Positions 1 through 55,830 of a DNA stretch of 64,000 nucleotides are shown here, piece after piece; within the stretch, counting starts at the first letter, position 1; each line of letters begins with the position of its first letter. Made by a program: the position numbers and the translations under genes. The notes beneath the pieces were generated by a model. The model searched no databases. It saw nothing but the letters and a program-made list of their open reading frames with translations, and was not told the origin of the DNA. Origin of the DNA: a virus (taxonomy: Duplodnaviria > Heunggongvirae > Uroviricota > Caudoviricetes); the IMG/VR virus record IMGVR_UViG_3300028591_000077; one strand, 5' to 3'.

Positions 1-374
1 TCGAGTCTTTTCTTTTATAAAACTTGTACGAAATTTGTACTCGAATCGTACCCGTAACATTTGAAATTTTTCACTAAATAGTGGATTTTTGCGGAAAAAT
101 TCTCCGATGTTGGATCAAATTCATCATAAAATTTACAAAAAGTTATTGTATAATATAATGTGTTAAACAAGCTAACTCAAAAATAACACAATACTCCGAC
201 ACCACACACAACTCACAAATTCCTCCTTTCTTTCAATAATAATTTCCGTGAGCGTGGTGAAAAACTTATTACCTCCTTTCTACAGACAGGCTCGAAGTTC
301 GGTTATAGAGTCTGTCTTTTTTCATATCCGTCGATCCAGTACGATTCGGGGGTACCGCCGTACTGTACAATTAT

Positions 375-388
375 CACTAATTAGTGGG
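375..388. repeat. palindromic repeat CACTAATTAGTGGG, member of the CACTAAWTAGTRG family
   Basis: perfect 12-bp palindrome core; related copies at 72-84, 481-495, 3378-3390, 3514-3525, 3624-3636, 5191-5205, 6550-6564, 7116-7128, 7261-7273, about 7398-7420. Confidence 0.6.
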
Positions 389-634
389 ATTTACCGAATC
401 AAGCTGCCAAATTTATCAGTATCTGTCTACGATTTTAGGTCAGAGGAATCTGCGCGGGGATCCGATGCTTCGGCCCGAATCCACCAAATTAGTGGTTTTT
501 TGGAATCGTGCCGTACCCCCGCATGCATGTATCGCGTTTCCTTAACTATTATACGTGTGTGCACACGCATAAAAATTATTTACAAACATATGGAAATATG
601 ATATAATAATAGTATAAGAAAGAAGGAACTCACT

Positions 635-877
635 ATGAAGTACAGGAACAACGGAAAAACTTATGATGTTGAAGAAGTCAATCTCGCCGGAGCAATCATC
701 AATGTGAATGGAACTTCCATCACAGACTATAAGACTATGGAATACATTACTGGAGACAAGATGTATTCTGGTATGGGTTATTCAGTCTTCTGCGATTCCG
801 ACGAAATCTGCTTTGATACTTTTGAAGAAGCATATGACTTCGCGATGAATAAACAAAAGAATACTTTCAGGATTTAA
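635..877 (+). CDS. hypothetical early protein (80 aa)
   Basis: ORF with upstream TATAAT-like -10 and RBS; TAA stop. Confidence 0.45.
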   Translation: MKYRNNGKTYDVEEVNLAGAIINVNGTSITDYKTMEYITGDKMYSGMGYSVFCDSDEICFDTFEEAYDFAMNKQKNTFRI

Positions 878-943
878 TTTGTTTACTTTTTTATTAAAAC
901 GTGATATAATTATTATAGAGAAAAGATAAAGGGAGGAAAATTT

Positions 944-1567
944 ATGAAAGGTTATGTTATCTTATCTGGCTCTGTTGACGGAGCGACTTGTGAAGACGAT
1001 GGCTTCATCAATTGTGCAAACTTTGGAATGGTTGGTAGTCTTGCCTTAAAGACTAAGAAAGAAGCGATTGAAGTCAGAGACCAAACAATCGAGACTGACG
1101 TAGAGGACTTCAAAACATTATGGACTGAAGAAGATGGTTATTCCATTGAAGTCGGCTCTATGAACGAAGACGAGGAATTGGCTGACAAGTATGTCGACGT
1201 CTACTACAATGGAAGCGTCGTCAATGAGACAATCTATAAGATTGCTCCAGTCGAATTCAAAGAATCGAAGAGAATTCCTAATGAGTCCGATGCTTATAGA
1301 AACTTACTGTTATCTATGTTAAAGCACAATGGTTATTATGAGAACATCCGCAAATGGATGAAGCTTAAAGGAATCGACGTCGAGAAAGCGGCGAGTATGT
1401 TCAATACGGTTTGGGATAAGATTCCTGATGGTATGTCTGCTTACTATTTCTTAGATAGTGTGGAAGATGCGTTAACGAAACTAGACGAAGACAAATGGAA
1501 TCAATTCGACGACGGTTATGATTTCGTTGACTATCTATACGACAACGACGGTTGGAAAACATATTAA
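944..1567 (+). CDS. hypothetical acidic early protein (207 aa)
   Basis: ORF preceded by gatataat -10 and GGAGG RBS; all Trp encoded by TGG. Confidence 0.55.
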   Translation: MKGYVILSGSVDGATCEDDGFINCANFGMVGSLALKTKKEAIEVRDQTIETDVEDFKTLWTEEDGYSIEVGSMNEDEELADKYVDVYYNGSVVNETIYKIAPVEFKESKRIPNESDAYRNLLLSMLKHNGYYENIRKWMKLKGIDVEKAASMFNTVWDKIPDGMSAYYFLDSVEDALTKLDEDKWNQFDDGYDFVDYLYDNDGWKTY

Positions 1568-1636
1568 TTAAAAAAGGGGTTTACAAAAACCTCTTTTTAT
1601 GTTATAATATATGTAGAATAAAGAGAGGTAATTTAT

Positions 1637-1804
1637 ATGACTGATACGGAAATTAAAAAGAAACTAGAAGAACTCTATGATGTATTGGACGAACTTCAAG
1701 AGACTTCTACGGCACAAACCAATAGCACTTTAATGTGGGAAATCGGTGAAGCGATGGGTCATATCGATAATGCCATTGATTCAATAGATAAAGAGAGGAA
1801 ATAA
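1637..1804 (+). CDS. small hypothetical protein (55 aa)
   Basis: ATG after TTTACA-N17-TATAAT promoter and GAGAGG RBS; not in ORF track (<60 aa). Confidence 0.4.
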   Translation: MTDTEIKKKLEELYDVLDELQETSTAQTNSTLMWEIGEAMGHIDNAIDSIDKERK

Positions 1805-1807
1805 ATT

Positions 1808-2221
1808 ATGGGTTTTAGAAAGATTAGAACGATTCAAGTAAGCGAAAGAGTATTCGACTTAGTATGCGAAAACTTAGACAATGAAGCGACAGAAAGCCAT
1901 GTCAAGATCGCTGGTTATTTAGAGTGCTTTAACAATTGTCGTGAACAAGGATACGTCCTTCATGTCGATTCCGTCGATTGGGATAATCCTGAACACACTA
2001 AAGACTCACTAGTGATTTGGGCTTTCGAAGCTAGGAGCTCTGACGAGATCGTCGTGTCGTGGCAAACCGAATATCCGCATAATGGAATGTTCAGCGAAGA
2101 TACTTATAAGAATCGCAGAAAGTATTTCCATTACAACGAACTTCAAAAAGCCGCGGATTATATCATAAACTTAGTTAAAGAAAAGTTCATAAAAGAGTTT
2201 ACAAAGTCTAAGGGTATGTGA
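1808..2221 (+). CDS. hypothetical protein (137 aa); terminates at TGA lying inside the next gene's promoter
   Basis: ORF; stop TGA at 2219-2221 overlaps the gatataat -10 of the downstream gene. Confidence 0.5.
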   Translation: MGFRKIRTIQVSERVFDLVCENLDNEATESHVKIAGYLECFNNCREQGYVLHVDSVDWDNPEHTKDSLVIWAFEARSSDEIVVSWQTEYPHNGMFSEDTYKNRRKYFHYNELQKAADYIINLVKEKFIKEFTKSKGM

Positions 2222-2251
2222 TATAATATTTATAGAGAGTGAGGAACGATT

Positions 2252-2698
2252 ATGAACAAAAAGAATATCGTTAAAAAAGAAAACATTACGAAAATCGCGG
2301 ACTTCCTAGAAAAAGCCTGTGAACATTTCAAGAAAGACGGCGAAGGTTGTTATAACTATCCGTTGTCAGAAGACTTAGTGTTGGCGGTTGGCTGGTCTGA
2401 CGGATATGACATGGCCGACACCGACATCATCAAATCTAAAGAAGGCCAAAGACCACATGGTTCTTGGACTTGTGGTTATGCGGTTAATGCCGCGGTCAAA
2501 GTCAGAAACGACTGTGATTGTGCCGATTTCGATTTCTTAGACTATCCGTTCTACGAAGACGGCGAATGTTGGGATACTGGAGTATCTATGAAACCTGATT
2601 TGAAACGCAGAGATTACAAGAAATTGGCGAGATGGTTTTTAGAAGATTTCGTTGGAATGACGAATGCTCATGCAAAAGGAGAATTGAAATATGAATAA
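2252..2698 (+). CDS. hypothetical Cys-rich protein (148 aa)
   Basis: ORF with promoter and RBS gaggaa; TAA stop. Confidence 0.5.
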   Translation: MNKKNIVKKENITKIADFLEKACEHFKKDGEGCYNYPLSEDLVLAVGWSDGYDMADTDIIKSKEGQRPHGSWTCGYAVNAAVKVRNDCDCADFDFLDYPFYEDGECWDTGVSMKPDLKRRDYKKLARWFLEDFVGMTNAHAKGELKYE

Positions 2699-3008
2699 AG
2701 AATTAATCAAAGTAGAAGTCGAACAGCCTTGGTATGTTTGGCGAAAAGAAGGCGGCGCGGAAACCGGCAATAAGTTCAACCGTCCTACTGCCAAACGTAG
2801 GTATATCCGAATCTTGGCGTTGTGCCTTATCCCTCTTCCTGCCAAAGTCATTTTCCCTAACACCAAACATCCTATGATGGCTCAAGTCCGAGACATGTGC
2901 CGCGCAGGACTACTCGATAGGTATGAGGTCAAAGGCGAACGTGGCTACTACTACAAAACTACTCCTGCTGGTTTTGACCTCTTGGCCAAAGCCGTCAGCG
3001 CCAAATAA
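2691..3008 (+). CDS. hypothetical basic protein (105 aa)
   Basis: ORF overlapping previous stop (ATGAATAA). Confidence 0.45.
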   Translation: MNKELIKVEVEQPWYVWRKEGGAETGNKFNRPTAKRRYIRILALCLIPLPAKVIFPNTKHPMMAQVRDMCRAGLLDRYEVKGERGYYYKTTPAGFDLLAKAVSAK

Positions 3009-3027
3009 GGAAAGGAGGTAGGCTCAG

Positions 3028-3168
3028 ATGATATTCATGATATTCGTCATCATAGCGATTTGGATGGTTCCGCCTGGAACGATTCCGCTCTGGCTTCAAA
3101 TTTGTCTGACGATATTTGGCTCATTGCATGCCTTATTCCATCTTGTGGAAATCGGAAGTGATGATTAA
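3028..3168 (+). CDS. small hydrophobic membrane peptide (46 aa)
   Basis: GGAGG RBS + ATG; predicted TM helix; read by eye. Confidence 0.3.
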   Translation: MIFMIFVIIAIWMVPPGTIPLWLQICLTIFGSLHALFHLVEIGSDD

Positions 3169-3699
3169 GACTGTGAAAACAGTCTTTTTATTTTGCGGAA
3201 ATTGTCGAATCAGATTCCAACATCGTACCCGGAATTCGGGTAAATCCGACTATTTTAGTGGAATTTTACGTTTTTGGGTACCCACGATGCATGATTCGAC
3301 ATGAAAAAAGGGGTTTACAAACCGTCGGAAACATGTTGAAATGTACGTGGGGATGGCGCTGTCATCGTGGAAATATTCACTAATTAGTAGAATTTAGCTG
3401 TGTCATCTGATCAGCTGAATCAGATAGATTACCGAAAATACAGACAGGACTTATCGATATTGTAGCAGGACTGGCATCGGGGGATCGGATAAATTGTAAA
3501 TTTCCACTAAAAGCGAAAGCTTTGCAGCTCGGGGGATCCACCCACAAGACGTGAATGATTCGATTTTATGGGTTTACATCTATATATATAGATGTATGGG
3601 GCTGGATTCGGCAAAGCTATATTTACTAATTAGTGATTTTACCGGATACAGCTGATCCCCAAATTCGATTCGATGTTTACAAATCTTTGTTTTTATCGT

Positions 3700-3912
3700 A
3701 TAATATCTACAGTCAAGGTTAAGGTAAACACACCCTAGAGCCTTAGCGTTGTGGGTTCGACTCCTACCTGGAACATGGTGATAGCGCAAATAAGACCATG
3801 TGAAAGTCAGCCAGCGAACGGGATCTGGCATGAGAGCCAAGTGGTAAAAGTCCATGTTGTGTGTTGAGTGGCAGAGAAGACATTAGAAAGGTTTGCGACT
3901 TCTAATGTCTTT
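3700..3912 (+). ncRNA. candidate small RNA (about 200 nt) with tRNA-like T-arm motif GGGTTCGACTCC
   Basis: TTTACA-N17-TATAAT promoter at about 3670-3700; no ORF; strong terminator 3884-3912. Confidence 0.3.
3884..3912 (+). terminator. rho-independent terminator
   Basis: gacattagaa...ttctaatgtc stem followed by T7 run. Confidence 0.7.
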
Positions 3913-3985
3913 TTTTATTTTATTATTTACAATTATATTAAAGCGCGATATAATATTAATAGAGAGAAAGAGAAGGTAACCAATT

Positions 3986-4141
3986 ATGACAGTTAAAGAA
4001 AAGTTAATCCAAGAGTTTGGATGCGCGATTACCGCAGTGTTCGGCGATGAAGCGGACAAAGAAACCGAAGATGTTGAAATCAGCAAGTCAGACATCGAGG
4101 CCATAGCGAAGAAAGTTAAGTTCTACATGGACTTAGATTAA
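3986..4141 (+). CDS. small hypothetical protein (51 aa)
   Basis: gatataat -10, RBS agaagg, ATG; TAA stop. Confidence 0.35.
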   Translation: MTVKEKLIQEFGCAITAVFGDEADKETEDVEISKSDIEAIAKKVKFYMDLD

Positions 4142-4153
4142 GGAGAAGATAAC

Positions 4154-4672
4154 ATGGAAAAGAAAATTGTTACAGTATTTGGCAAGAAGAACTACTTACT
4201 TGGCCAAGATGCAGATAGAATAAACCATTATATTGAAGAGCCTAACTTCGATTGCGGTTGGTATTGGGGCGGACTTTATGTCGAGACCTTCACTAACAAC
4301 AGACAGCCAGAAAGATCGAAGGATATCAGTTCTCATTCCCACTTCGATTCTATGTTCTTGAAGTGCGACGGCGCGTTTGGACCTGAGGTGTTCAAGAGAA
4401 TCTTCAAGAAGACCGTGTTGAATTCCGACAAAGAGATGTGGAGACTCTTGGAATTAGCGAAGACCTTCTACACTCTTAGAAAGGCGGCTGACCTATTCCA
4501 CATCGGCGGAAGTCACATTACTACGAACGATTGCTACGACGTCATCAAAGACCAGAAGATGTATGAGGAAATAGTCAAAGTCAAACTTCCAGCCGTCATC
4601 TCTGAAATCATGAATCTCTTAGGCGGGGATACCAAGCCAGAAGATTTCGCCAAGAAAGTCGTGCTCGAATAA
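4154..4672 (+). CDS. hypothetical protein (172 aa)
   Basis: ORF with RBS aggagaag. Confidence 0.55.
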   Translation: MEKKIVTVFGKKNYLLGQDADRINHYIEEPNFDCGWYWGGLYVETFTNNRQPERSKDISSHSHFDSMFLKCDGAFGPEVFKRIFKKTVLNSDKEMWRLLELAKTFYTLRKAADLFHIGGSHITTNDCYDVIKDQKMYEEIVKVKLPAVISEIMNLLGGDTKPEDFAKKVVLE

Positions 4673-4873
4673 AAATATTAAAAAAGTATTTACAAAAAGT
4701 TAAATACATGATATAACGTTAATTGTGAGGTGAATGAATATGTCATATAAATCAAAAGCTAGAAAAGCGCGTAACTCATGGGTGTCAAAACACAAACGCC
4801 CATAAACGACATTCAAAAATAATATTAAAAAATTATAGGTGTATGTCGTATAGTATAATGGAGGCTAGATACA

Positions 4874-5077
4874 ATGGAAACTAAGAAACTTGTAGAAGCA
4901 TTCGAACAAGGCTACATCTATATCAAATCAAATCCTACAAAACAAGTTCCAGTCAAATCAATCGATTATAATGGTGTTGTTGTAGAAGTTAATCAAGCCG
5001 GTTATAAAACAACCGTTACATATACTGCCAATACTTATGGAACTTATTGGGGTAACAAACCAGAAGACATTTGTTAA
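4874..5077 (+). CDS. hypothetical protein (67 aa)
   Basis: ORF after tatagtataat -10 and ggagg RBS; terminator 5098-5135 downstream. Confidence 0.4.
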   Translation: METKKLVEAFEQGYIYIKSNPTKQVPVKSIDYNGVVVEVNQAGYKTTVTYTANTYGTYWGNKPEDIC

Positions 5078-5190
5078 AAAACTATACACTCTCTTCTTTC
5101 CTAGGACCTTGAGCAATCAAGGTCCCCTTTCTTTTTAGGCGTCAGAATCATAGACCTGAATCGGATGGGGGATCGAAAGCTTCGGCTATT

Positions 5191-5205
5191 TCCACTAATT
5201 AGTGG
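5191..5205. repeat. palindromic repeat CCACTAATTAGTGGG inside a GC-rich intergenic island
   Basis: flanked by GGGGATC motifs (5167, 5219) and enclosed by inverted repeat gtcagaatcat/atgattctg. Confidence 0.6.
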
Positions 5206-5333
5206 GATTTCGCCGATGTTGGGGATCCGCCGATGCACATGATTCTGGTCGCGGAATATAAAATTAAAAATAATATTTACAAAGTTAATTTAACATAGTA
5301 TAATATAAATAAAGAAAGAGAGAATTATATTTT

Positions 5334-5543
5334 ATGGACAACATCGAAATCGAAAACAGATATGGAAAGTTATATGTCAAAGTGCCAGCATTGGTTGCTC
5401 ATAACAATTCCGAAACATGGAGCACAAGTTATTCTACCGAAACCGTCGGAGTTCCATTAGAAAGCATCATCGGTATTCTACAATTGGTTGGGGTTCAAAT
5501 CAATCTCAACGACGACTTCTATAAGAAAGTAGGTAATCTATAA
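5334..5543 (+). CDS. hypothetical protein (69 aa)
   Basis: ORF; stop overlaps next start (TAATG). Confidence 0.4.
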   Translation: MDNIEIENRYGKLYVKVPALVAHNNSETWSTSYSTETVGVPLESIIGILQLVGVQINLNDDFYKKVGNL

Positions 5544-6094
5544 TGGAAACATTAATCTTCAACAAACCATTCAAAGACTTCTTGAAAAGAATTGGGTTCA
5601 AAAAAGAAAACCATTCTGCATGCGAACCAGACAACGAAATCTTCTATATCAAAGAATATGGAGATGAATATGGTGTATTTGGTCACATCTGCATTGAACA
5701 AAATTGGGATGGAAAAGATTTATCTCTTATAGTCGTTTGGCCGAAGGTAAGCGACTTCAATGGTTCATTCGATTTAGAGACCGTCACGCTTGAACAAGCA
5801 GAAGACCAAATCAAAAAGGTCGAAGAGATCATGGCGAAGATGAAAGTTGATTTACTTAAGTTAGTGAAGAAGGCGAGAGAGCTTCAAGCTGTAGACAATA
5901 AGTTCGAGTTCAAGTCTTACTCCGCTGAGATGAGGGAAGACGGTTATGCCGAAGTCTTCGGACATAACGTTAGAGGTCAAAGCATCAGTCTTGGCATCAC
6001 TACTAAAAAGATTAATGACTTCACCCCTGAAGATGTTAAACAAGAACTCTTACATGAGGTCATTCAAAACTTCTTCAAAAATAAGTTGGCATAA
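5543..6094 (+). CDS. hypothetical protein (183 aa)
   Basis: ORF translationally coupled to previous. Confidence 0.55.
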   Translation: METLIFNKPFKDFLKRIGFKKENHSACEPDNEIFYIKEYGDEYGVFGHICIEQNWDGKDLSLIVVWPKVSDFNGSFDLETVTLEQAEDQIKKVEEIMAKMKVDLLKLVKKARELQAVDNKFEFKSYSAEMREDGYAEVFGHNVRGQSISLGITTKKINDFTPEDVKQELLHEVIQNFFKNKLA

Positions 6095-6173
6095 AAACCA
6101 ACTTTTTATTTACAAAGTAATGTTATAATGATATAATATATATAGAGTTAAGAAAGAAAGGATATTAGAAATT

Positions 6174-6449
6174 ATGAACTTAACAAAAATTAATGGATGT
6201 TATTCAAAAGAATTAAGAGAGAATTGTTATAACATCAAACTTCTCGTCAAAGATAGAAATACTTCAGTCAAGACAATGAAACAATGGATTAATAATATCA
6301 TTGAGCCAGCTTTTATTGAGGCAAAAGCCAAAGCTAGATTTAGAACCAATCTATCTAATTGTCAAACAAAAGAAGAGATTGACCAATTATGTCAAGATGT
6401 CGTTCTTCATGGAATGTATTACACACCAAAGAAAAGACAAGTTCGATAA
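6174..6449 (+). CDS. hypothetical protein (91 aa)
   Basis: ORF after tttacaaa...gatataat promoter. Confidence 0.4.
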   Translation: MNLTKINGCYSKELRENCYNIKLLVKDRNTSVKTMKQWINNIIEPAFIEAKAKARFRTNLSNCQTKEEIDQLCQDVVLHGMYYTPKKRQVR

Positions 6450-6629
6450 GTCTTGAATAACTTGAGAGTTCGTAAGAACTCTTTTTTATTTACATTTCTC
6501 ACAGGACATGTTATCATGAGATCAGGGAGTACGGAAGCTTCGGAAAAAACCACTAAAGAAGTGGATAAGCCGAAGCCGGATGGTACCCCCCACGCCGAAT
6601 GGTTCTGAAAACTTTTTATAAAAAAACGT

Positions 6630-6665
6630 TTACAAAGTTCTAATATCTTGGTATAATATAAATGA
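6630..6665 (+). promoter_or_regulatory. sigma70-like early promoter TTTACA-N17-TATAAT (representative of about 15 in the first 12 kb)
   Basis: tttacaaagttctaatatcttggtataatat; same architecture before genes at 944, 1637, 2252, 4740, 6174, 7530, 9204, 11400. Confidence 0.55.
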
Positions 6666-6686
6666 AGATAAGAGAGGTAATTAAAA

Positions 6687-7037
6687 ATGAACGAAAACGA
6701 AAAACAATTGGTAAAACAATTCTTCGAACTTAAAGCCAAACAAATAATCTGCAAAGTATGGTTGATGATTAATCAGAAACCTGGATACACCAATGATGAA
6801 GTTGGGTTGATGATGAAGGTAATGGAAGTTCAATCCAAACTCGAAACAGTCGAATCGAACATCTTGGACTTACTCAAAGCAAACGAAACCTTCTTCATGA
6901 ATTCGGACTTAGAAGAGTTATCGAAGCAACAAGAGTTCAAAGTCTCGTTCGACAAACAAAAAGAATACTCAAAAGAATTGTTAGGTTACGAAACTACAAT
7001 CGAAGACTTGATTGAAAAACTTCCAAGACGTGGTTAA
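6687..7037 (+). CDS. hypothetical protein (116 aa)
   Basis: ORF after tttacaaa-N17-tggtataat promoter and gagagg RBS. Confidence 0.45.
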   Translation: MNENEKQLVKQFFELKAKQIICKVWLMINQKPGYTNDEVGLMMKVMEVQSKLETVESNILDLLKANETFFMNSDLEELSKQQEFKVSFDKQKEYSKELLGYETTIEDLIEKLPRRG

Positions 7038-7075
7038 TTCCATGTCTTTTTTATTTATGAAGTTCCGCACATAGG

Positions 7076-7109
7076 TCATGATGAATCTGGGAGATCGGAT
7101 TCATCATGA
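7076..7109. repeat. 12-bp perfect inverted repeat tcatgatgaatc / gattcatcatga (hairpin)
   Basis: seen directly; sits at the start of intergenic island 7040-7450. Confidence 0.6.
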
Positions 7110-7289
7110 TTTTTCACTAAATAGTGGATAAAGCTTTTTGGGATGGCCCCCCTCGGATTAGCATCAGGAGTATCTTGCAAAAAAGTATTTACAATTCCAA
7201 GAGAATATGTTACCATGAGGTTGGGAAAGAAATTGGGGATCGCCGAAGAATCAAATAAACCACTAAATAGTAGAATTTAGCTGTCATCC

Positions 7290-7312
7290 GTACGATTCGG
7301 CGGTACGATTCG
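7290..7312. repeat. tandem direct repeat GTACGATTCG x2 (a third copy at 333-342)
   Basis: seen directly. Confidence 0.55.
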
Positions 7313-7529
7313 ACCTGTTGGTAAGACATAATTAGGACGATTTGACCTATGCAGTATCCTGCGGGGATCCCGATGCGCCTAGAAGAACGACTATTTAGTA
7401 GAATTAGTGGTTTAAGAATCCGGATGTGGATCGCCCCAGACTATGTGGTTAGAACTTTTATTAAATAATTGTTTACAAATATATATTTATATGGTATAAT
7501 ATTTATAGAAGATAAGGAGAGACTAAGTT

Positions 7530-7730
7530 ATGAAATGTTGTATCTGCGGAATAGAAATTAATGGTTATGGCAATAATCCTCAAGGTGCTGTTTGGAAGAC
7601 TCCAGAAGGTGAAATCTTTGAAGCAGAGTTTGATGCTGATGCCAGATGCTGTGACGAATGTAATACTAGGTTCGTTATTCCTGGTAGAATCTATAGAATG
7701 AACAAGGGGCACAAACATGATTCTAACTAA
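7530..7730 (+). CDS. Cys4 zinc-ribbon protein (66 aa)
   Basis: CxxC...CxxC pattern; promoter and RBS upstream. Confidence 0.45.
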   Translation: MKCCICGIEINGYGNNPQGAVWKTPEGEIFEAEFDADARCCDECNTRFVIPGRIYRMNKGHKHDSN

Positions 7731-8010
7731 GAAACATAAATGGTTCCTCTTTGATAATAACTATGTCACTGCCAAAGTCTTGGACGCCGCTTATTTAGGT
7801 GCTTGGCAAGACTACTTCATCAACAACTTCAGATGGGAGTTAAGCGAGAATAAAGATGCCTATGGTTTCTATAGACTATATCTTAAGGACAAGAAGACCG
7901 ACGATATAGAATATACTATTGGAATTAATTGGCAAGGTGATGACTTCCACAAGATGCTAACTTATATGCAAGACCCTAATAGTCCTAAACTAACTGCACA
8001 AAGGAGATAA
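7717..8010 (+). CDS. hypothetical protein (97 aa)
   Basis: ORF overlapping previous. Confidence 0.45.
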   Translation: MILTKKHKWFLFDNNYVTAKVLDAAYLGAWQDYFINNFRWELSENKDAYGFYRLYLKDKKTDDIEYTIGINWQGDDFHKMLTYMQDPNSPKLTAQRR

Positions 8011-8015
8011 AGAAT

Positions 8016-8306
8016 ATGAAATACAAAGTAACTACTTCGTATCTAATCGGAGCCGGAGACATGAGTCACGACGACGAGTGGATATTCGACACCAGAGAAG
8101 AAGCTCAAGCGTTCGTAGACAAATTCCATAAGGCGTTTCCAGAAGAGACTAAGACTATGGATGACCCATACATCTACACAAGCAAATGGAAACCTGAGAT
8201 AGAAGAAATCAACGATACTCGTGCCGACCCATACGTTTGGTTGGACAAACAAATAAAAGAAAAAGAAGAGCGTGAAAGACGCCATAAAGAAAGGTGGGGC
8301 TACTAA
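8016..8306 (+). CDS. hypothetical acidic protein (96 aa)
   Basis: ORF with RBS aggagat. Confidence 0.45.
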   Translation: MKYKVTTSYLIGAGDMSHDDEWIFDTREEAQAFVDKFHKAFPEETKTMDDPYIYTSKWKPEIEEINDTRADPYVWLDKQIKEKEERERRHKERWGY

Positions 8307-8307
8307 T

Positions 8308-8679
8308 ATGAAAATGACCGCGATGTTAAATGGATTAACCATAAAGAATCCTAACTATTACGAGAAGAGAGACAACGCCGACGTATTGGTTTTGTCTGAT
8401 GGAACCGAAATCACTTTCGACGGAGACGAGAACTCCGGACCTAACGACTGCTATAACTACGCCGACTGGTCTGCATTAGAAGACACTGGATTCTTCGAGG
8501 ATAAAACTATCACTGCAGAAACCTTGAAGTTAGAATCAGTGGAACCTTACGGCTTCAGAATCAACGGCTACTTCGTTCCTTGCTATTCCTGTCAGAACGG
8601 TTGGTATACTTCTACCTTGACCATCACTGCAAAGAAAGACGGTAAGGTAATCGCCACCATCGACTGCGAAGGAGAATAA
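8308..8679 (+). CDS. hypothetical protein (123 aa)
   Basis: ATG after RBS aaggtgggg; start trimmed from track ORF 8272. Confidence 0.45.
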   Translation: MKMTAMLNGLTIKNPNYYEKRDNADVLVLSDGTEITFDGDENSGPNDCYNYADWSALEDTGFFEDKTITAETLKLESVEPYGFRINGYFVPCYSCQNGWYTSTLTITAKKDGKVIATIDCEGE

Positions 8680-8683
8680 TAGT

Positions 8684-9094
8684 ATGAGTGATTACGTTCA
8701 TAATAAAGCAGTGATGTATCCAATCGACTGCGCTAAGCTAGGAATCAAAGACGCATGGGACCTAGATGAAAAGATTCCAGAAGCATTAAAGAACAACTGG
8801 GATAAGAAGTATCCTTACTTCGAATTAGAAGCAATGGTTGATTATGCCGGTAACGGAGATTGTAATTACTACTTATCATTGGTATTGGACAGCACATACG
8901 GCAGAGAGTCTGGTGACTTCGGTAGGAATAGAACTTTAAGTCCAACCGAACAAGAAAAGTATAAGAAGATATTCGAACAAGTGATTCCTGATGTCGACCC
9001 TTCGAAGCTGAAGTATGTAGACTATTGCTATTACAACTGTTGTGAGAGCGAAGACTATTACGTAAAGGAAGACGAGTTCAATACGGAGATATAA
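8684..9094 (+). CDS. hypothetical protein (136 aa)
   Basis: ORF. Confidence 0.5.
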   Translation: MSDYVHNKAVMYPIDCAKLGIKDAWDLDEKIPEALKNNWDKKYPYFELEAMVDYAGNGDCNYYLSLVLDSTYGRESGDFGRNRTLSPTEQEKYKKIFEQVIPDVDPSKLKYVDYCYYNCCESEDYYVKEDEFNTEI

Positions 9095-9203
9095 ACGAAC
9101 TTAAATAATAATTAATATTAATGTTTACATTATGTGAAAAGTAATGTATAATAACAATAGAGTCGAGACAACCATACCTCGACTTTTATTGTGGAGAGAG
9201 AAT

Positions 9204-9647
9204 ATGGAACATCATCTGAACATTGTCAGGAAGCTCAAGACTGCGCTGCGGATAGCGAAAACCACTAGCAAGGTAAGCGATGTCCGCGAGTATCATCTTG
9301 GCGCCGTCATCTTCGACAAGCATAAGATTTACTGCTATGCCTGCAACACCGACAAAGAGATTCCGATGCAGAGATACTACAACAGGTTCAAAGCGCCTGA
9401 CGCCAATAAGTGGAGAAAGCATTCCGCCCACGCCGAGATGAACTGCATCCATAAACTACTACAGCAATACTACGACAAATTGCCGGACTACTCAAAGCTA
9501 TCGATATTGGTATACAGAGAACACCATGACGGAACGCTCGCCATGGCACGTCCCTGTAAGGCATGCTCTCAGGCGCTGAGGGATCTGGGATTCAGGCATG
9601 TCTACTATACTAGTGATAACGGCTTGTGCTACGAAGAATTCATCTGA
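9204..9647 (+). CDS. cytidine/dCMP deaminase-like zinc-binding protein
   Basis: HAE ... PCxxC zinc-binding motif pair (SAHAEMNCI ... ARPCKACSQA); GC about 50 percent; start set at RBS ggagagag + ATG. Confidence 0.5.
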   Translation: MEHHLNIVRKLKTALRIAKTTSKVSDVREYHLGAVIFDKHKIYCYACNTDKEIPMQRYYNRFKAPDANKWRKHSAHAEMNCIHKLLQQYYDKLPDYSKLSILVYREHHDGTLAMARPCKACSQALRDLGFRHVYYTSDNGLCYEEFI

Positions 9648-9664
9648 TAAGGAGAACATTGAAA

Positions 9665-9835
9665 ATGACATTCGAGGGTAACTACAAAATCTTCATCCAA
9701 GGCGACGACGATAAATACGACGTCTGCGTCCGCATGCCGGAGAACGGTATGATAGCGAGATTCGACTGCGTATACGCGGCCGACAAGTATGCCAAAGAGC
9801 ACGGCATAGTATCAGGGTATATAGTAAAGAAGTAA
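9665..9835 (+). CDS. small hypothetical protein (56 aa)
   Basis: RBS aaggagaa + ATG; GC-rich. Confidence 0.4.
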   Translation: MTFEGNYKIFIQGDDDKYDVCVRMPENGMIARFDCVYAADKYAKEHGIVSGYIVKK

Positions 9836-9857
9836 TATAATAAGTATACATAGGGCC

Positions 9858-9884
9858 TGGCGACAGGTCCTTTTTTCATATACG
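9858..9884 (+). terminator. rho-independent terminator
   Basis: gggcctggcgacaggtcc followed by T6. Confidence 0.55.
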
Positions 9885-10114
9885 TCAGGCCAGGATACTG
9901 GATCCGGGGCGTCTGTACGGGCTATAAAAGCCACTACTGGAATAGTGAAAATTTGCATTGAATTTTCGGCGGGGGCCCCTAAATTTTTCACACTTGCTGT
10001 GCGCGAGAAATTTGCCTTTCGATTTTTCCACGCGCGCACATACGCGTATATAAAGAGAGTAGCAAAAAGAGTAGTAATTTAAAAAATTTTATCGTATAAT
10101 ATAAAAAGAGGTAT

Positions 10115-10633
10115 ATGTATATGAACAAGACTTTAACGAACGCATCGCAACTTAATATCGACCTATCCGCCTTCCATGAGCCCGACCGCAAGTGGAAGCA
10201 GTATTATTATGAGGATATTGAACATAATCTATTGTTCCTCATTCCTTCTTATATGGCCTATGGTCCTATAGTCGTGGACCTTGACTGGGCTAAGACTGCC
10301 AGGTTTACTACCGGAGACAGTGCTATCCATATGTTTAAGGACTATGCTTGGAACATGACTTCTAATGTTCGTAGAACTAGCTATGTCAAGACGACTGTTA
10401 CTGATAGAAGCGTTAAGTGCGGAAGGAAGACTATCATTCTTGGTTTATTGGTGATGGACAAACTATATAATGAGCCTGATTCTATTGATAAGCTCGCCGT
10501 CAATTATCTTAATGGCAATACGCTTGATAATAGGAAAGTCAATCTATCTTATGGCGTCTTAAAGGAGAATAATGATAGTAAGTATTCTTCTGAGGTTCCT
10601 GCTGTCAATTATCCTTGTAAGATTTGGTGGTAA
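10115..10633 (+). CDS. hypothetical protein (172 aa)
   Basis: ORF after cgtataatat promoter. Confidence 0.5.
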   Translation: MYMNKTLTNASQLNIDLSAFHEPDRKWKQYYYEDIEHNLLFLIPSYMAYGPIVVDLDWAKTARFTTGDSAIHMFKDYAWNMTSNVRRTSYVKTTVTDRSVKCGRKTIILGLLVMDKLYNEPDSIDKLAVNYLNGNTLDNRKVNLSYGVLKENNDSKYSSEVPAVNYPCKIWW

Positions 10634-10699
10634 AAATATTAAAAAATTTCTATATTACTTTATATAGGATTGTATAATATATTAGACAGGAGAATATTT

Positions 10700-11347
10700 A
10701 TGTGTAAGACAGTTAAACAAAGTAAAAATGAATTAGTTATTATCGGTGAGATTGTTCATATCCGATTAGTAAATACTGGGCATTATACAAAGGCTACAAA
10801 GTCTACATTCTATAATTTACATGCCGACTACTATACTTGGTATGAATCACCTGACAGATATGCTTATGCTACCGTTAATGGCGAGACTATTAAATTACAC
10901 GAATATATCAAAGGTAAAAGACCTGGATTAATGGTAGACCATAAAGATAGAGATAGACTTAATAATACGGATGAAAATCTTAGAGTCTGTTTACCAGCAG
11001 AAAATGCTCGCAATACTAGCTTAGCAAGAAATAATAAGCTTGGTGTTAAAGGTATTAAGCAAGAGAAAGATGGCAAGTATACAATCCACTTATGGCCGGA
11101 TTCAGATGGTCGTTATATTGGTAGAACGGCAGACTTAATTGTAGCTCAATTAGTTTACAATGTTGCAAGTAAATGGTATTATGGTGATTTTGCTTATCAA
11201 CACGAAATTGCTGAGAGAGATATCACACAAGCGAGACTTAAAGATACTAGCACATTATTAGAACACTTTAAAGAAAAAGAAGAAAAACGCAATAGAGAAG
11301 TTCCTCACGTATTAGGTTCATTCTATGTTGCACAAGAAGCTATTTAA
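10700..11347 (+). CDS. HNH homing-endonuclease-like protein
   Basis: HEYIKGKRPGLMVDHKDRDRLNNTDENLRVCLPAENARN matches the HNH (H-N-N) core. Confidence 0.6.
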   Translation: MCKTVKQSKNELVIIGEIVHIRLVNTGHYTKATKSTFYNLHADYYTWYESPDRYAYATVNGETIKLHEYIKGKRPGLMVDHKDRDRLNNTDENLRVCLPAENARNTSLARNNKLGVKGIKQEKDGKYTIHLWPDSDGRYIGRTADLIVAQLVYNVASKWYYGDFAYQHEIAERDITQARLKDTSTLLEHFKEKEEKRNREVPHVLGSFYVAQEAI

Positions 11348-11399
11348 TAAGTAAAAAAATTTAAAAAAACTATTTACATTTAGAGAAATCTATTGTATA

Positions 11400-12295
11400 A
11401 TAATTATGTAGCTTGTAGAAGAACCCTATAAGAGAATATAAGAATACAATTATCGACGGATAATATGACTTAAAAGGTATTATAGGGACAGGTCTTGAAG
11501 TTATTGTAAGACGACGGCATCTAATAAGTCGACCAATGTTAGTTGAACAGTCTGAATGATGGAGTCAATTCGAATTATACGGCCTACAACGCTATACATG
11601 CCAAGTAAGTTATTGAGTTACCCAATGCACAAAGCGAAGGGTATTAAATGGCAATCGCTACCGACGTCGCAAGACCCAGGCAACAAACAGAGCTTAATAA
11701 CCCGTTCCTCAAAGCCAATTCAAAATGGAAAACGTTAGATAAACACTGACTTATTTGAGTTTCTGGCGGATTTCTGACAGTGAAAAAATAATTGGTTTTG
11801 AGGACCGGAAAAGCGGGTTCGACGCCCGTCGTAACGTCGTACGGCGTTATATGTAGTTCAGGTGTAGGTAGAACACCGGTGGCAAGTTCGCGAGGAGTTT
11901 GGCTAAGCATAACCCCGACGACATATCAGGTAGCGAAGTACAAGTGGCAAGGTGAGAGAGCCGATCTGATGTGCAATAACCTTCTTAGGTTATCTAAGCA
12001 TATTGTCAATCAGTATTCTTAGACAACCTGCAGAAGCTAAAAACCACGTTAAAAACCATAAGATAATCGGTTAAGTGGAGATGGAACCGATTGTGAGGAA
12101 TCAGGCGCAGACGACAAATCCCGAAGACACTGCGTGATCAAATGGGCGGAAGAATGGAGTAGCTAACCATTCCAAAATATGTTAAGTATCTCAGGAGTAA
12201 CTAACCTGAGTGGTAGAGGTGTGATGACTTCAGTCATCTCCAAATATAAAGAGTCTAGAAATGGGCTCTTTTTTCTTATTTTTATTGTATTATAT
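11400..12295 (+). ncRNA. candidate large structured non-coding RNA (about 0.9 kb, family undetermined)
   Basis: tttaca-N17-tgtataat promoter at 11376-11400; no credible ORF on either strand for about 900 nt; GC above flanks; many local hairpins; T-run terminator near 12265-12290. Confidence 0.35.
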
Positions 12296-12560
12296 ATTGA
12301 TAAGGTTGAGCCAAGAGGCTGGCTTAAAAGAAGACATCAACCTTATTACAGAAGAATGGCTCCGCATACAGGGCACGTAAAGTTCGACTGTGATTATTGT
12401 TTATTACTGAAATTCTAGATTATCTTGTATGCATGTTTGAAGCGATTGGCGCTTGACCGTGGAGAGCATTATTATATTGTGTAAAAAGCGTAATGGCACC
12501 GAGTCTAGAATCGTTGCCATTTTTTATATCTTCATTAATTGCTAAATTATACGATAGGAT

Positions 12561-13643
12561 GTGACGCTAATGAAGAATCTAGTTAAGACTGATTTCGATA
12601 CAACAGTAGAAGAACTTAATAGCTTAAATGAGCAGTATGCTGATACTGCTGATTTTAATGTTCACATTAATTTAAAAACTCCGTCTACGCAAGAGATAAA
12701 GAAAGCACAAGATGATTTTAAGAACAACGCTAATAATCTTATATTAGACTATCCTAATTTTCATCTTGGCTATGATTTAATGATGTTTGAAGCATTATTT
12801 AATTTTTATCTTAATGACCAAACAAATGCCAATAATAGTGCTTGGGCCGATGATCATGCAAGACAAATTATGAATGCTATGTTTGATGACAACGGACGCT
12901 GAAAAGGCAGAGGCTCTTATAATTACATAAAAAATATTATTGTTCCATTAGGCAATAAAGAATTAGAAAGAGCTATGAAGCTTGCTTGGGGCTTGATGTA
13001 TACCTCTGATAGTGCAAAGATAGCACATAAAGTTATTAAGATGAATGGTAGTACAATAACTACTACTTCTAATGTTGCTAATAATGTAACAAAAGACAGA
13101 GCTATTGCTTTTGTAAAAGAAAAATTATCAAAAGGGATTTTTATGTGGACAGGCGGTTTTAATGAAAATTCTTCGTTTGAAAATGCAACATTTGAAGAAA
13201 AGTTCTTAACATTCCTTTGCATGCAATTAAGCGTAGAACAAGAAATCAAAACCATACCAATGGCTATTAGAGGTGTAGCAGTAACAGATGAACAAAGAAC
13301 CTTATTCATAAGAGGTATGCAAACCATAAGAGATATTATTTATAGTAAGAACTATGATAGAGTCTTAGATATTTATACAACTATTGCAGAGGTGCACGGC
13401 GAGCTAGAAAAGGGTGGAGCATATTACACTGATTGGTTCCAAGTATTCTATAATAATAAGAAGATATTTGTTGACTTTGAAGTTATGGAAATGGGCTTAG
13501 CATTATTTATGAAGAAAATTGGTTGGCATTTAACGTATGATAAAATAGTAGACATTATCGGAATAGATAATCTTGAAAAACATTTTAAATATGGTGATAG
13601 CTTCTTATGTATGCTTAATAGAATAAAAGTAATAGAGGATTAG
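12561..13643 (+). CDS. hypothetical protein (360 aa if TGA at 12900 is read as Trp); N-terminus paralogous to next gene
   Basis: track ORFs 12561..12902 and 12975..13643 are in frame, separated only by TGA; fused length matches the 347-aa paralog. Confidence 0.45.
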
Positions 13644-15469: not shown

Positions 15470-15970
15470 ATGGAATATACTTATGGTATTGAAAAAGTCT
15501 ATAATATCGTCAAAAGAGTAAGAAGAAAGCTTATATTAAATGACAAGGTTATTGATTATCTTTATAATAAACTTTCTGATAAAAATAAAAGATATGTCTT
15601 AATGACAGGCTATTCTGAGTATAAAGAAATTACAAAAGATGTCATCAAAGATTTATTGCAGAAAGCCGAACAAGATGGCAGATATTGGAACAAAGATGTT
15701 TTTGCAGAATTAGCAGATTATCCGGAATATGATGGCGTGCCATTCGAGGTTACTCATGCAAGTCCATATGACCATCGTTGGCCAGGCGACTACGATGAAG
15801 ATGCTTATGATGATTGGAAAGTAGATGCATGCAGTCTTAGTGACTTATTATATGATGACACTTGAAATACAGAGCCTGTCTTTGCAGAACATCCAGAAAA
15901 CTTCGATTTTGAGGATGAAGAAGTTGAAATAGAACAAGAAAAACTAACAGATACACGTTATGGCTGGTAA
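15470..15970 (+). CDS. hypothetical protein (166 aa with TGA at 15863 read as Trp)
   Basis: ORF continues through TGA to TAA at 15968. Confidence 0.45.
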
Positions 15971-19130: not shown

Positions 19131-19195
19131 TTGGTGCTTTTTATTTATTTTTTATTTGCTAAATTATGTGATAAATATCTATTGGAGGATACAAT

Positions 19196-22950: not shown

Positions 22951-22962
22951 TTGCTAAATTAT
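22951..22962 (+). promoter_or_regulatory. conserved 12-mer TTGCTAAATTAT (extended -10-like TGcTAAATT), one of 7 copies
   Basis: identical or near-identical copies at 12539, 19156, 22951, 33172, 40193, 47119, 55821, each 2-40 nt upstream of a start codon on the + strand. Confidence 0.5.
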
Positions 22963-32853: not shown

Positions 32854-33165
32854 ATGATATATAAACTTAGTGATGGAACCAATTTAGAATATGCTATTGT
32901 TGGAGATAATTGTAAAGTCTGCAATTCTTTTCTTATTATTAAAAAACATTTAAAGCTTGAGTTTATAAATTTTTTAAGAGAGACTTATTCATTATTTAAA
33001 CTAAGAGGCGTAAAGTCTTATTATCGTGAATGGAAAGCACATAATTTACTTTATAAATTGCATATTTTGCGTTGTAGTACACATGATACTGATTTATGTA
33101 TTCATGAATATAGATGACGTAGAGTTTGTTATTTTATCATATCATTGTTCCCAATAGATATTTAG
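32854..33165 (+). CDS. hypothetical protein (leaderless; extends through TGA at 33115)
   Basis: ATG immediately after cgtattatatatt -10. Confidence 0.3.
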
Positions 33166-33195
33166 CTTTATTTGGCTAAATTATATTGAGGACCT

Positions 33196-33435
33196 ATGAA
33201 CGGATTGTATAGCTATCACGACTATGAAGAGGCCTATTTTCATGGACGAGTATATGATTGTAAGAAGATAGGCTTATATCTCTTGGGCAAGCTTAAGGAT
33301 GATAGATCAAAGAAATTATATAAACAACTTGAATCTATTGAGTATGCCTGAAATTTGCCGCACAGAAAATTGGATAAGCTTGCAGAAACATTATTAAATG
33401 TTAAAATCTGACTTATGGTAAATCAAAATTATTAG
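33196..33435 (+). CDS. hypothetical protein (79 aa, two TGA-Trp codons)
   Basis: ORF missed by track because of TGA; TTGGCTAAATTAT motif upstream; terminator 33431-33458 downstream. Confidence 0.4.
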
Positions 33436-55809: not shown

Positions 55810-55830
55810 TTAATAAATTTCTGCTAAATT

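What the first reader, a model, noticed from the sequence alone, without database searches (positions are those of the whole stretch)
1..12560. Two translation regimes: the first 12.5 kb avoids TGA-Trp and uses TGA once as an apparent stop; the rest uses TGA-Trp freely
About 30 ORFs in 1-12.5 kb encode every Trp as TGG and end in TAA/TAG. The only in-frame TGA (2219-2221) sits inside the TTTACA-N17-gatataat promoter and RBS of the next gene, so it behaves as a stop. A second case is tgataa at 9645. From 12.9 kb onward TGA-Trp appears about once per 2 kb. The same boundary separates sigma70-like promoters (TTTACA -35) from -35-less extended -10 promoters, and about 40 percent GC from about 30 percent (by eye). 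This resembles stop-codon-recoded phages whose early genes are compatible with a standard-code host while late genes need a suppressor. Alternatives: a code-4 host with chance TGA avoidance, or a chimeric assembly.
Basis: partly seen in the sequence, partly recalled or inferred. Interest (0 to 1): 0.75.

Follow-up and report, generated by a model that had tools for sequence, protein, structure and literature searches.

The report
Phage with dual-use TGA codon
This is part of a large gut or rumen-type phage in which TGA ends a few early genes but encodes tryptophan in about ten other genes; this kind of stop-codon recoding is already known, and here the recoded genes sit mostly behind one distinctive promoter-like motif rather than filling everything after 12.5 kb.

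Summary
In 1-12.5 kb no gene has an interior TGA (48 TGG). Two genes end at TGA: 2219, inside the next gene's promoter, and 9645, as TGA-TAA. The strong host-type promoters cluster there (12 of 14). Third-position GC drops from 0.43 to 0.27, though total GC only falls from 38% to 34%. After 12.5 kb, TGA encodes Trp: relatives have TGG at four of the same positions, and homology runs through a fifth.

The two-block picture is wrong, however. 62 of 72 later genes also lack TGA, and TGA-free stretches of 11.6, 9.1 and 7.5 kb occur there. Early versus late gives only p=0.03 per codon and 0.11 per gene. Among + strand genes, TGA-Trp concentrates in gene groups behind the motif TGCTAAATTAT. There it makes up 17 of 85 Trp codons, against 3 of 152 in other late genes (p=3.5e-6).

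A native code-4 host, chance and chimerism are all disfavoured. No tRNA with a UCA anticodon was found among at least 31 phage tRNAs just outside the window, but 49 kb of the contig could not be read.

Best reading: a TGA-recoded phage of a standard-code host, of the kind described by Borges et al. It is a new member of a known kind. The decoding mechanism is unresolved.

The parts
132..11401 (+). Early-gene region: 12 host-type promoters (TTTACA-N16-18-TATAAT) and 22 short genes, with GC3 0.43 and no interior TGA. Stops are 20 TAA, 2 TGA and 0 TAG. The region continues at least 9 kb upstream of the window.
   Evidence: L007 holds 23 such promoters in 20.6 kb
1808..2221 (+). Early gene of 137 aa that ends at TGA 2219-2221. 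Read as code 4, it would fuse in frame with the next gene.
   Evidence: The homologue in L001/L002/L003 is 84-85% identical and ends with TAA three residues shorter.
2198..2227 (+). Promoter TTTACA-N18-TATAAT for the next gene; it contains the TGA stop of 1808-2221.
2252..2698 (+). Independent early gene of 148 aa, in the same frame as 1808-2221.
   Evidence: The homologue (74-78% identical) lies about 800 bp upstream of the 1808 homologue in L001/L003, with an E-type promoter at 8680 close upstream.
9204..9650 (+). dCMP-deaminase-like early gene ending in the tandem stops TGA TAA.
11405..12270 (+). About 870 nt of non-coding, strongly folding transcript candidate at the boundary. It lies between the early promoter at 11373 and a terminator hairpin at 12248-12280.
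   Evidence: z = -6.4; no Rfam match
12300..12525 (+). Conserved small-RNA candidate between a -35-less promoter and the first late-type motif.
   Evidence: 73% identical to L017 1765-2020; terminator hairpin with compensatory changes
12540..12550 (+). Late-type motif TGCTAAATTAT, 30 nt before gene 12570.
   Evidence: 6 exact sites; 0.22 expected
12570..13643 (+). 357-aa gene with a sense TGA at 12900.
   Evidence: Homology to the family of the 19196 gene runs across the TGA (hhalign 95.9%).
15470..15970 (+). 166-aa gene with TGA at 15863. Read as code 4, it ends right before a terminator hairpin.
   Evidence: inference from gene spacing
19157..19167 (+). Late-type motif before gene 19196-20326, which has no TGA.
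22952..22962 (+). Late-type motif before 22993 and the tail-fibre gene.
23353..28956 (+). Tail-fibre gene of 1867 aa with 8 in-frame TGA.
   Evidence: (tail-fibre PHROGs)
32854..33165 (+). Small ORF with TGA at 33115. Whether this TGA is a sense codon or a stop is undecided.
33174..33184 (+). Near-match to the late-type motif (GGCTAAATTAT) before 33196.
33196..33435 (+). Small ORF with TGA at 33349 and 33409. Not verified as a gene.
40194..40204 (+). Late-type motif before 40232.
40232..41881 (+). 549-aa gene with TGA at 40928 and 41069.
41885..42616 (+). Class-3 lipase-like gene with TGA at 42125.
   Evidence: L004 has TGG at this position; Pfam Lipase_3
42629..44530 (-). Glycosyltransferase (two GT2 domains) plus TPR gene with 6 in-frame TGA. 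A degenerate late-type motif lies upstream.
   Evidence: At 43996 L004 has TGG; the other five are TGA in both genomes.
47120..47130 (+). Late-type motif before 47159-47419, which has no TGA.
55822..55832 (+). Late-type motif at the start of 55831.
55831..56535 (+). P-loop kinase-like gene with TGA at 56044 and 56488.
60171..60629 (+). DUF5662 gene with TGA at 60300 and 60372.
   Evidence: At 60300, L011/L013 have TGG and L017/L018 have AGA. At 60372, all four have TGG.
37993..38021 (+). Early-type promoter island inside the later region; the genes that follow it (38049-40175) lack TGA.
47828..47856 (+). Second early-type promoter island; the genes that follow it (48259-52899) lack TGA.

Best explanation
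The window is part of a large virulent phage (source contig 131 kb), probably of a Firmicutes-like host that uses the standard code.

Early genes are driven by host sigma-70-type promoters and are fully compatible with the standard code. They have no interior TGA, they use host-like codons richer in G/C at the third position, and TGA serves as a terminator in a few of them.

A minority of genes carry TGA codons that must be read as tryptophan. Among the + strand genes most of them lie in gene groups behind the phage-specific motif TGCTAAATTAT, and they include the tail fibre. Their full-length products can only be made once the infected cell decodes TGA. This would tie their translation to a late stage of infection, as in the code-switch model for recoded phages.

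SHOWN
- TGA means Trp in these genes.
- TGA coincides with natural protein ends in early genes.
- TGA-Trp is associated with the motif class.

INFERRED
- The motif is a late promoter.
- The host uses the standard code.
- Decoding changes during infection.

The agent that decodes TGA was not found.
For: TGA AS TRP
- Relatives have TGG in place of TGA at 42125, 43996, 60300 and 60372; 7 further TGAs are conserved as TGA.
- Homology continues across TGA 12900.
- The 1867-aa tail-fibre reading frame needs 8 TGAs to be read through.

TGA AS A STOP IN EARLY GENES
- 1808-2221 and 2252-2698 are separate genes, placed differently in L001/L003.
- In the 41 early genes of this genome, all three TGAs lie at gene ends.
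- In this genome and its relatives, 5 of 6 early genes ending in TGA have a TAA or TAG within 5 codons, against 21 of 90 genes ending in TAA or TAG (p=0.005).

PATTERN BY GENE CLASS
- TGA as a share of Trp codons: 0/46 in the early region, 0/34 in early-promoter islands, 3/118 behind -35-less promoters, 17/85 behind TGCTAAATTAT.
- Within the later region, motif class against the rest: p=3.5e-6 per codon and 1.4e-4 per gene. It stays significant (p=6e-4) without the tail fibre.
- The motif occurs 6 times exactly against 0.22 expected, always on the + strand and 9-41 nt before a start codon.
- GC3 falls in step: 0.43, 0.30, 0.28, 0.22.

HOST
- Nearly every gene has a strong AGGAGG-type ribosome-binding site.
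- The closest isolate homologues of the Pnkp-ligase are all from Firmicutes phages.
- A ROOL RNA sits in the tRNA array.

The model and its genome layout are described in 10.1101/2021.08.26.457843.
Against: - No tRNA with anticodon UCA was found among at least 31 tRNAs next to the window, nor in the tRNA array seen around PhoH in the relative L017. Only tRNA-Trp(CCA) is present.
- No RF1 or TrpRS was found among the window proteins scanned.
- Only about 12% of genes are recoded, below the 26-71% reported for recoded clades.
- Apart from the tail fibre, the recoded genes are not recognisably structural or lytic. They include a glycosyltransferase, a lipase-like protein, a kinase-like protein and a DUF5662 protein. 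One motif-class gene gave a confident structural model with no known fold.
- I noticed the link between motif and TGA after the fact, it rests on 15 genes, and I could not test it in relatives.
- Neither the host nor the timing of expression was observed.
Confidence: 0.6

Rival explanations
1. TGA is decoded as Trp throughout infection, with no temporal switch. TGA was reassigned recently in this lineage and is still rare. The early genes that end in TGA are relics, made harmless by back-up TAA stops or tolerated as a fusion (1808-2698).
For: - Back-up TAA or TAG within 5 codons follows 5 of 6 early genes that end in TGA.
- TGA is rare in every class, and a DUF5662 gene outside the motif class (60171) also carries two verified TGA-Trp codons.
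- No switch machinery was found.
Against: - It does not explain why TGA-Trp is about ten times more frequent behind one promoter-like motif.
- It does not explain why 80 Trp codons behind early promoters include no TGA, although A-ending synonymous codons are preferred.
- The 1808/2252 junction keeps a full promoter, ribosome-binding site and start codon for a separate protein.
Confidence: 0.15
2. The host itself uses code 4 (a Mycoplasma-like lineage), so no switch or suppressor is needed, and the early region avoids TGA by chance or through its composition.
For: - No UCA suppressor tRNA was seen in this phage or in the tRNA array seen in a relative.
- Relatives are also recoded: PhoH in L014 and L017 carries in-frame TGA.
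Against: - With free code-4 usage TGA should be the main Trp codon. A-ending codons make up 55-92% of comparable pairs, but TGA is 0-3% in most classes and 20% at most.
- All TGAs in the early region fall at natural protein ends.
- The phage carries tRNA-Trp(CCA), not UCA.
- Only about 12% of genes carry in-frame TGA, against about 90% for phages of recoded hosts.
- The high GC3 of early genes (0.43) is unlike code-4 hosts, which have very AT-rich third positions (my own knowledge).
Confidence: 0.08
3. The two parts are unrelated sequences joined by an assembly error near 11-13 kb.
For: Promoter type, GC3 and TAG use all change at 11.4-12.5 kb.
Against: - Three contigs from the collection carry gene 13648-14691 with mostly the same neighbouring proteins within 4 kb on either side, a span that crosses the junction.
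- Both sides share the same ribosome-binding-site style and the same GTATAAT -10 element.
- Early-type promoters recur at 37993 and 47828, and -35-less ones at 10093 and 10671.
- Relatives likewise combine early regions of this kind with recoded genes.
Confidence: 0.02

Closest known systems
TGA-recoded ('code 4') large gut phages of standard-code hosts: the Jade, Sapphire and Agate clades of Borges et al. (10.1101/2021.08.26.457843; published 2022)
   Same: - TGA is read as Trp in only a subset of genes.
- Recoded genes lie in several modules spread across a genome of more than 100 kb.
- A structural (tail-fibre) gene is heavily recoded.
- TGA is rare as a stop elsewhere.
- The genome is low in GC, comes from animal-gut or rumen-type metagenomes, and has a large tRNA set.
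- A suppressor tRNA is often undetectable: only 35% of code-4 genomes had one.
   Different: - Fewer genes are recoded here (about 12% against 26-71%).
- Most recoded genes are not recognisably structural or lytic.
- No suppressor tRNA, RF1 or TrpRS was seen.
- Clade membership was not tested, because the terminase is not in the window.
- The link between recoded codons and one promoter-like motif, and the back-up stops after early TGA terminators, were not among the passages of that paper I read.
Block-wise dual-code phage genomes (crAss-like and Lak phages with TAG or TGA reassignment; Mgcod, 10.1101/2022.06.29.495998)
   Same: One genome has standard-code sections and recoded sections, with early or replication genes in the standard code.
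   Different: There are not two contiguous blocks here. Recoded genes form at least 7 short islands among TGA-free genes. The hosts of those phages are Bacteroidetes, which lack Shine-Dalgarno sites (my own knowledge), whereas this phage has strong AGGAGG sites.
Temporal promoter classes of large virulent phages (T4 early/middle/late; SPO1) - from my own knowledge
   Same: There is a cluster of many short early genes behind near-consensus host promoters, and later genes behind phage-specific motifs without a -35 element. Codon usage also shifts towards the phage's own tRNAs.
   Different: The motif TGCTAAATTAT matches no promoter known to me, its timing is untested, and those phages do not recode TGA.
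Phages of Mycoplasma and Spiroplasma (native code-4 hosts)
   Same: TGA is translated as Trp.
   Different: There TGA is a main Trp codon in all genes and never a terminator. Here it is rare, restricted to a gene class, and also ends genes.

Membership tests
Stop-codon-recoded phage (TGA to Trp) on a standard-code host | In-frame TGA in real genes, at positions where homologues have Trp (TGG) | tested here: met
   Relatives have TGG in place of TGA at 42125, 43996, 60300 and 60372. Homology runs across 12900.
Stop-codon-recoded phage (TGA to Trp) on a standard-code host | Only part of the genome is recoded; the other genes can be read with the standard code | tested here: met
   10-11 of about 94 genes carry in-frame TGA; none of the 22 early genes does.
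Stop-codon-recoded phage (TGA to Trp) on a standard-code host | Recoded codons are concentrated in late (structural or lysis) genes | tested here: inconclusive
   The tail fibre has 8 TGAs, and TGA is enriched behind the motif TGCTAAATTAT. The other recoded genes have non-structural or unknown functions, and expression timing is unknown.
Stop-codon-recoded phage (TGA to Trp) on a standard-code host | TGA still acts as a terminator in the genes that are not recoded | tested here: met
   TGA 2219 ends a protein that stands alone in relatives. 9645 and L007 2436 are followed by TAA within 0-2 codons.
Stop-codon-recoded phage (TGA to Trp) on a standard-code host | Phage-encoded code-change machinery: a tRNA with anticodon UCA, RF1 or TrpRS. 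This is common but not universal. | tested here: inconclusive
   None was found in the window, in 20 kb of flanking sequence with at least 31 tRNAs, or in the tRNA array seen in relative L017. About 49 kb of the source contig could not be read.
Stop-codon-recoded phage (TGA to Trp) on a standard-code host | The host uses the standard code | not testable with these tools
   Only indirect evidence: host-type promoters and ribosome-binding sites, homologues in Firmicutes phages, and codon usage.
Jade / Sapphire / Agate clades | Placement in the large-terminase phylogeny | not tested
   No terminase gene was identified in the window or in the loci held.
Phage of a native code-4 host | TGA is a frequent Trp codon in all gene classes | tested here: not met
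   TGA share is 0, 0, 0.03 and 0.20 of Trp codons, against 0.55-0.92 A-ending codons in comparable pairs.
Phage of a native code-4 host | No gene terminates at TGA | tested here: not met
   Three of 41 early genes end at TGA, at natural protein ends.
Two-block dual-code genome (Mgcod type) | Contiguous blocks, each using one code | tested here: not met
   Runs of TGA-free genes number 22, 3, 18, 5, 0, 10, 0, 18, 4 and 4. Recoded genes are scattered islands.

The most novel reading that the evidence does not exclude
TGA-Trp codons act as a translational gate wired to one phage promoter class (TGCTAAATTAT). The phage decodes them without a conventional UCA suppressor tRNA. Possible routes are an altered use of its own tRNA-Trp(CCA), inactivation of host RF2, or a non-canonical RNA from its tRNA/ROOL/tRNA-like array, helped by its unusually rich set of tRNA-repair and tRNA-editing genes (Thg1-like, CCA-adding enzyme, RNA ligases, Pnkp).
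Probability: 0.15. Interest if true: 0.75.

Novelty: new member of a known kind. Interest (0 to 1): 0.4.

Why it matters
This is a clean, internally controlled example of one codon with two meanings in a single phage genome: a stop in early genes and tryptophan in a defined gene set. It adds three testable details to the known model.
- Recoded codons track a specific promoter-like motif rather than a genome block.
- Early TGA terminators carry back-up TAA stops.
- No standard suppressor tRNA is visible despite more than 30 phage tRNAs.

In practice, standard-code gene calling splits at least ten genes here, including the tail fibre, while code-4 calling wrongly fuses two early genes. Neither single code annotates this genome correctly.

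Tried and rejected
SEARCHES THAT FOUND NOTHING
- DNA similarity of 1-13 kb to isolated phages: no match.
- IMG/VR relatives of the recoded genes 12570-13643 and 40232-41881: none.

ATTEMPTS TO READ PAST THE END OF THE tRNA ARRAY
- Exact-pattern scans of viral and metagenome contigs found nothing.
- Look-ups through the 651-aa neighbouring protein reached only other, shorter contigs.
- Look-ups through PhoH and a 204-aa protein of relative L017 did not return the source contig.

SEARCH FOR A UCA-ANTICODON tRNA
- ARAGORN at default and lowered thresholds and with introns, Rfam, and my own stem-loop scan all found none.

OTHER DEAD ENDS
- Automatic code-4 gene calling on relatives, meant to test the motif-TGA link, was too noisy to use, giving false ORFs in tRNA arrays.

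REJECTED READINGS
- ORF 248-601, which ends at TGA 599, is not a gene. It has no ribosome-binding site, lies in a repeat-rich non-coding zone, and was not called by the source's gene caller.
- ORFs 11556-12418 are not genes; they lie in a non-coding, structured region.

Full report
WHAT THE WINDOW IS

The window is part of a large phage genome. Exact-protein look-ups place it at positions 31,096-95,095 of a 131,032-bp metagenome contig, ena:ERZ27256846:k141_3714765. A contig of more than 200 kb also carries the same genes. Nearly all genes are on the + strand.

Recognisable products:
- a 1867-aa tail fibre
- DNA ligase and thymidine kinase
- a dCMP-deaminase-like protein
- an SPFH protein
- a rich RNA and tRNA toolkit: Thg1-like enzyme, RNA ligase, CCA-adding enzyme, two HAD 'Swiss-army-knife' repair domains, and a kinase-phosphatase-ligase fusion

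No isolated phage matches at the DNA level. The closest isolate homologues of the repair fusion protein are all from Firmicutes phages, at 40% identity or less. Nearly every gene has a strong AGGAGG-type ribosome-binding site. About 3 kb beyond the window's end lies an array of at least 31 tRNA genes with an embedded ROOL RNA.

CHECKING THE OBSERVATION

I count 22 credible genes in 635-11347. They hold 48 TGG and no interior TGA; 20 stop at TAA, 2 at TGA and none at TAG.

TGA 2219-2221 lies inside TTTACA-N18-TATAAT (2198-2227). A second in-frame TGA at 2240 lies in the ribosome-binding site of the gene that starts at 2252. TGATAA at 9645 ends a deaminase-like gene.

Twelve of the 14 TTTACA-N16-18-TATAAT sites lie in 132-11401, against 0.14 expected. 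Fifteen of the 17 -35-less YGTATAATA sites lie later.

Total GC differs only modestly, 38.4% against 34.1%. Third-position GC is 0.43 against 0.27, p=3e-7.

The stretch 11.4-12.56 kb is non-coding. It holds an approximately 870-nt strongly folding transcript candidate and a conserved small-RNA candidate, so the ORFs there that end in TAG are not genes.

The early region continues at least 9 kb upstream of the window. In total it has 41 genes and 23 such promoters.

TGA ENCODES TRYPTOPHAN IN LATER GENES

Under code 4, several split ORFs merge into long reading frames, for example 23353-28956 with 8 TGAs.
- Related contigs have TGG exactly where the window has TGA at 42125, 43996, 60300 and 60372. 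They keep TGA at seven other positions.
- The first gene after the boundary (12570-13643) is homologous to the family of 19196-20326 on both sides of its TGA at 12900 (hhalign 95.9%).
- Relatives are recoded too: PhoH in L014 and L017 has in-frame TGAs.

TGA MARKS GENE ENDS IN THE EARLY REGION

The homologue of 1808-2221 in three IMG/VR contigs is 84-85% identical. It ends with TAA three residues shorter and is followed by a different gene. The homologue of 2252-2698 lies elsewhere, about 800 bp upstream, with an E-type promoter at 8680 close upstream. So 1808-2698 is not one conserved protein.

In the 41 early genes of this genome the only in-frame TGAs are three. All are at gene ends, and two of them are followed by TAA within 0-2 codons. 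Early regions of relatives show the same pattern. Overall, 5 of 6 early genes that end in TGA have a TAA or TAG within 5 codons, against 21 of 90 genes that end in TAA or TAG (p=0.005). One orthologous pair is counted twice in that figure. This enrichment of back-up stops suggests that TGA is an unreliable terminator in this lineage.

THE BOUNDARY IS REAL, BUT NOT FOR TGA-TRP

Promoter type, GC3 and TAG use (0 of 22 against 18 of 71, p=0.01) all change at 11.4-12.5 kb. TGA-Trp does not follow that line.
- 62 of 72 later genes have no TGA.
- TGA-free runs of 18 genes occur twice, and TGA-free stretches of 11.6, 9.1 and 7.5 kb occur later, against 12.9 kb at the start.
- Early against late gives p=0.031 per codon and 0.11 per gene.
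- Early genes against later genes outside the motif class gives p=1.0.

WHAT TGA-TRP DOES FOLLOW

Intergenic regions show a third motif, TGCTAAATTAT. It occurs 6 times exactly (0.22 expected), plus one near-match. All sites are on the + strand, 9-41 nt before a start codon, and often directly after a terminator hairpin.

I assigned each + strand gene to its nearest upstream motif. TGA as a share of Trp codons is then:
- 0/46 in the early region
- 0/34 in the two early-promoter islands at 38-40 and 48-53 kb
- 3/118 behind -35-less promoters
- 17/85 behind TGCTAAATTAT

Within the later region the motif class differs from the rest at p=3.5e-6 per codon and 1.4e-4 per gene. It still differs at p=6e-4 without the tail fibre. 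GC3 falls in the same order: 0.43, 0.30, 0.28, 0.22. The minus-strand glycosyltransferase, with 6 TGAs, has a degenerate copy of the motif upstream.

Caveats: I noticed this association after the fact, it rests on 15 genes, that the motif is a late promoter is inferred, and I could not test it in relatives.

ALTERNATIVES

Native code-4 host or chance avoidance. A-ending codons make up 55-92% of the comparable purine-ending pairs in every class, so a free TGA codon should dominate. It is 0-3% in most classes. Out-of-frame TGA is common, at 20-70 per 1000 codons. The early TGAs all fall at protein ends. The phage carries tRNA-Trp(CCA).

Chimeric assembly. Three contigs carry 13648-14691 with mostly the same neighbours across 9.6-18.7 kb. 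Both sides share the same ribosome-binding-site style and -10 element, and each promoter type also occurs on the other side.

Constant suppression of TGA, without a temporal switch. This remains possible but does not explain the pattern by gene class.

MECHANISM

The best-supported reading is the published code-switch model. Early genes are translated under the host's standard code. A defined later gene set can only be completed once TGA is decoded as Trp.

The decoding agent was not found.
- There is no UCA-anticodon tRNA in the window, in the 20 kb of flanks, or in the tRNA array seen in relative L017.
- There is no RF1 or TrpRS among the proteins scanned.

This is not unusual: only 35% of TGA-recoded genomes had a detectable suppressor in the reference survey. 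In addition, the tRNA array runs off the sequence I could read, and 49 kb of the contig remain unseen. A tail fibre with 8 TGAs cannot be made by weak read-through, so efficient decoding must exist.

COMPARISON AND NOVELTY

This is a new member of a known kind, the TGA-recoded large phages of animal-gut or rumen-type samples. It shares their scattered recoded modules and their scarcity of TGA stops.

It differs in four ways:
- Few genes are recoded, about 12%.
- Most recoded genes are not recognisably structural.
- The recoded codons are tied to one promoter-like motif.
- Early TGA terminators carry back-up stops.

Clade membership could not be tested because no terminase gene is available.

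Noticed in passing
window 72-84, 375-387, 483-496, 3253-3274 / 3491-3512, 3378-3390, 3619-3641: The palindromic motif CACTAATTAGTG(G) is repeated in two non-coding zones of the early region (about 60-600 and 3180-3680). It looks like operator or iteron sites.
   Followed up: no
window 11405-12270: About 870 nt with no credible ORF, lying between a strong early promoter (11373-11401) and a terminator hairpin (12248-12280). Folding energy z-score is -6.4. There is no Rfam match and no similar DNA in the relatives held. It is a candidate large non-coding RNA.
   Followed up: partly
window 12300-12525; L017 1765-2020: A small-RNA candidate conserved at 73% identity in a distant relative. It has a nearly invariant core of about 60 nt and a terminator hairpin that keeps pairing through compensatory changes.
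   Followed up: partly
L005 14067-20348 (about window 67.0-73.3 kb, outside the window): An array of at least 31 tRNA genes that runs off the retrievable sequence. It includes tRNA-Trp(CCA) and many U34 anticodons that read A-ending codons. This fits the AT-rich third positions of later genes.
   Followed up: partly
L005 18783-19368: A full-length ROOL RNA (Rfam RF03087, 210 bits) lies inside the phage tRNA array. This matches the known association of ROOL with tRNAs, phages and rumen samples (PMC5737381).
   Followed up: yes
L005 about 18625-18690 and 19700-19790: Two permuted tRNA-like modules, in the order T-arm, 3' acceptor strand, CCA, 4 nt, 5' acceptor strand, D-arm. One of them (19700-19790) gives a weak, sub-threshold match to Y RNA-like YrlA; another weak YrlA hit lies at 15984-16057.
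   Followed up: partly
window 35247-36197, 38049-38978, 48259-49683, 49696-50256, 54131-54976, 55165-55809, 60683-62962: An unusually dense tRNA and RNA repair or editing gene set: Thg1-like enzyme, RNA ligase, CCA-adding enzyme, two HAD_SAK_2 domains, a PARG-like protein and a kinase-phosphatase-ligase fusion.
   Followed up: partly
[not shown]
   Followed up: partly
window 1-64000 (stop codons): TAG stops are absent from the 22 early genes but end 18 of the 71 later + strand genes (p=0.01). This is a second stop-codon difference between the regions.
   Followed up: yes
L004 2448-5170 against window 41885-44575: The order of the lipase-like and glycosyltransferase genes differs between the window and relative L004. 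In L004 the TGCTAAATTAT motif sits directly before the lipase gene.
   Followed up: no
L001 1883-3598; L003 1304-3019: In relatives, an SNF2-type helicase gene just outside the early region has a conserved in-frame TGA at codon 47. Recoding in this family is therefore not limited to structural genes.
   Followed up: no
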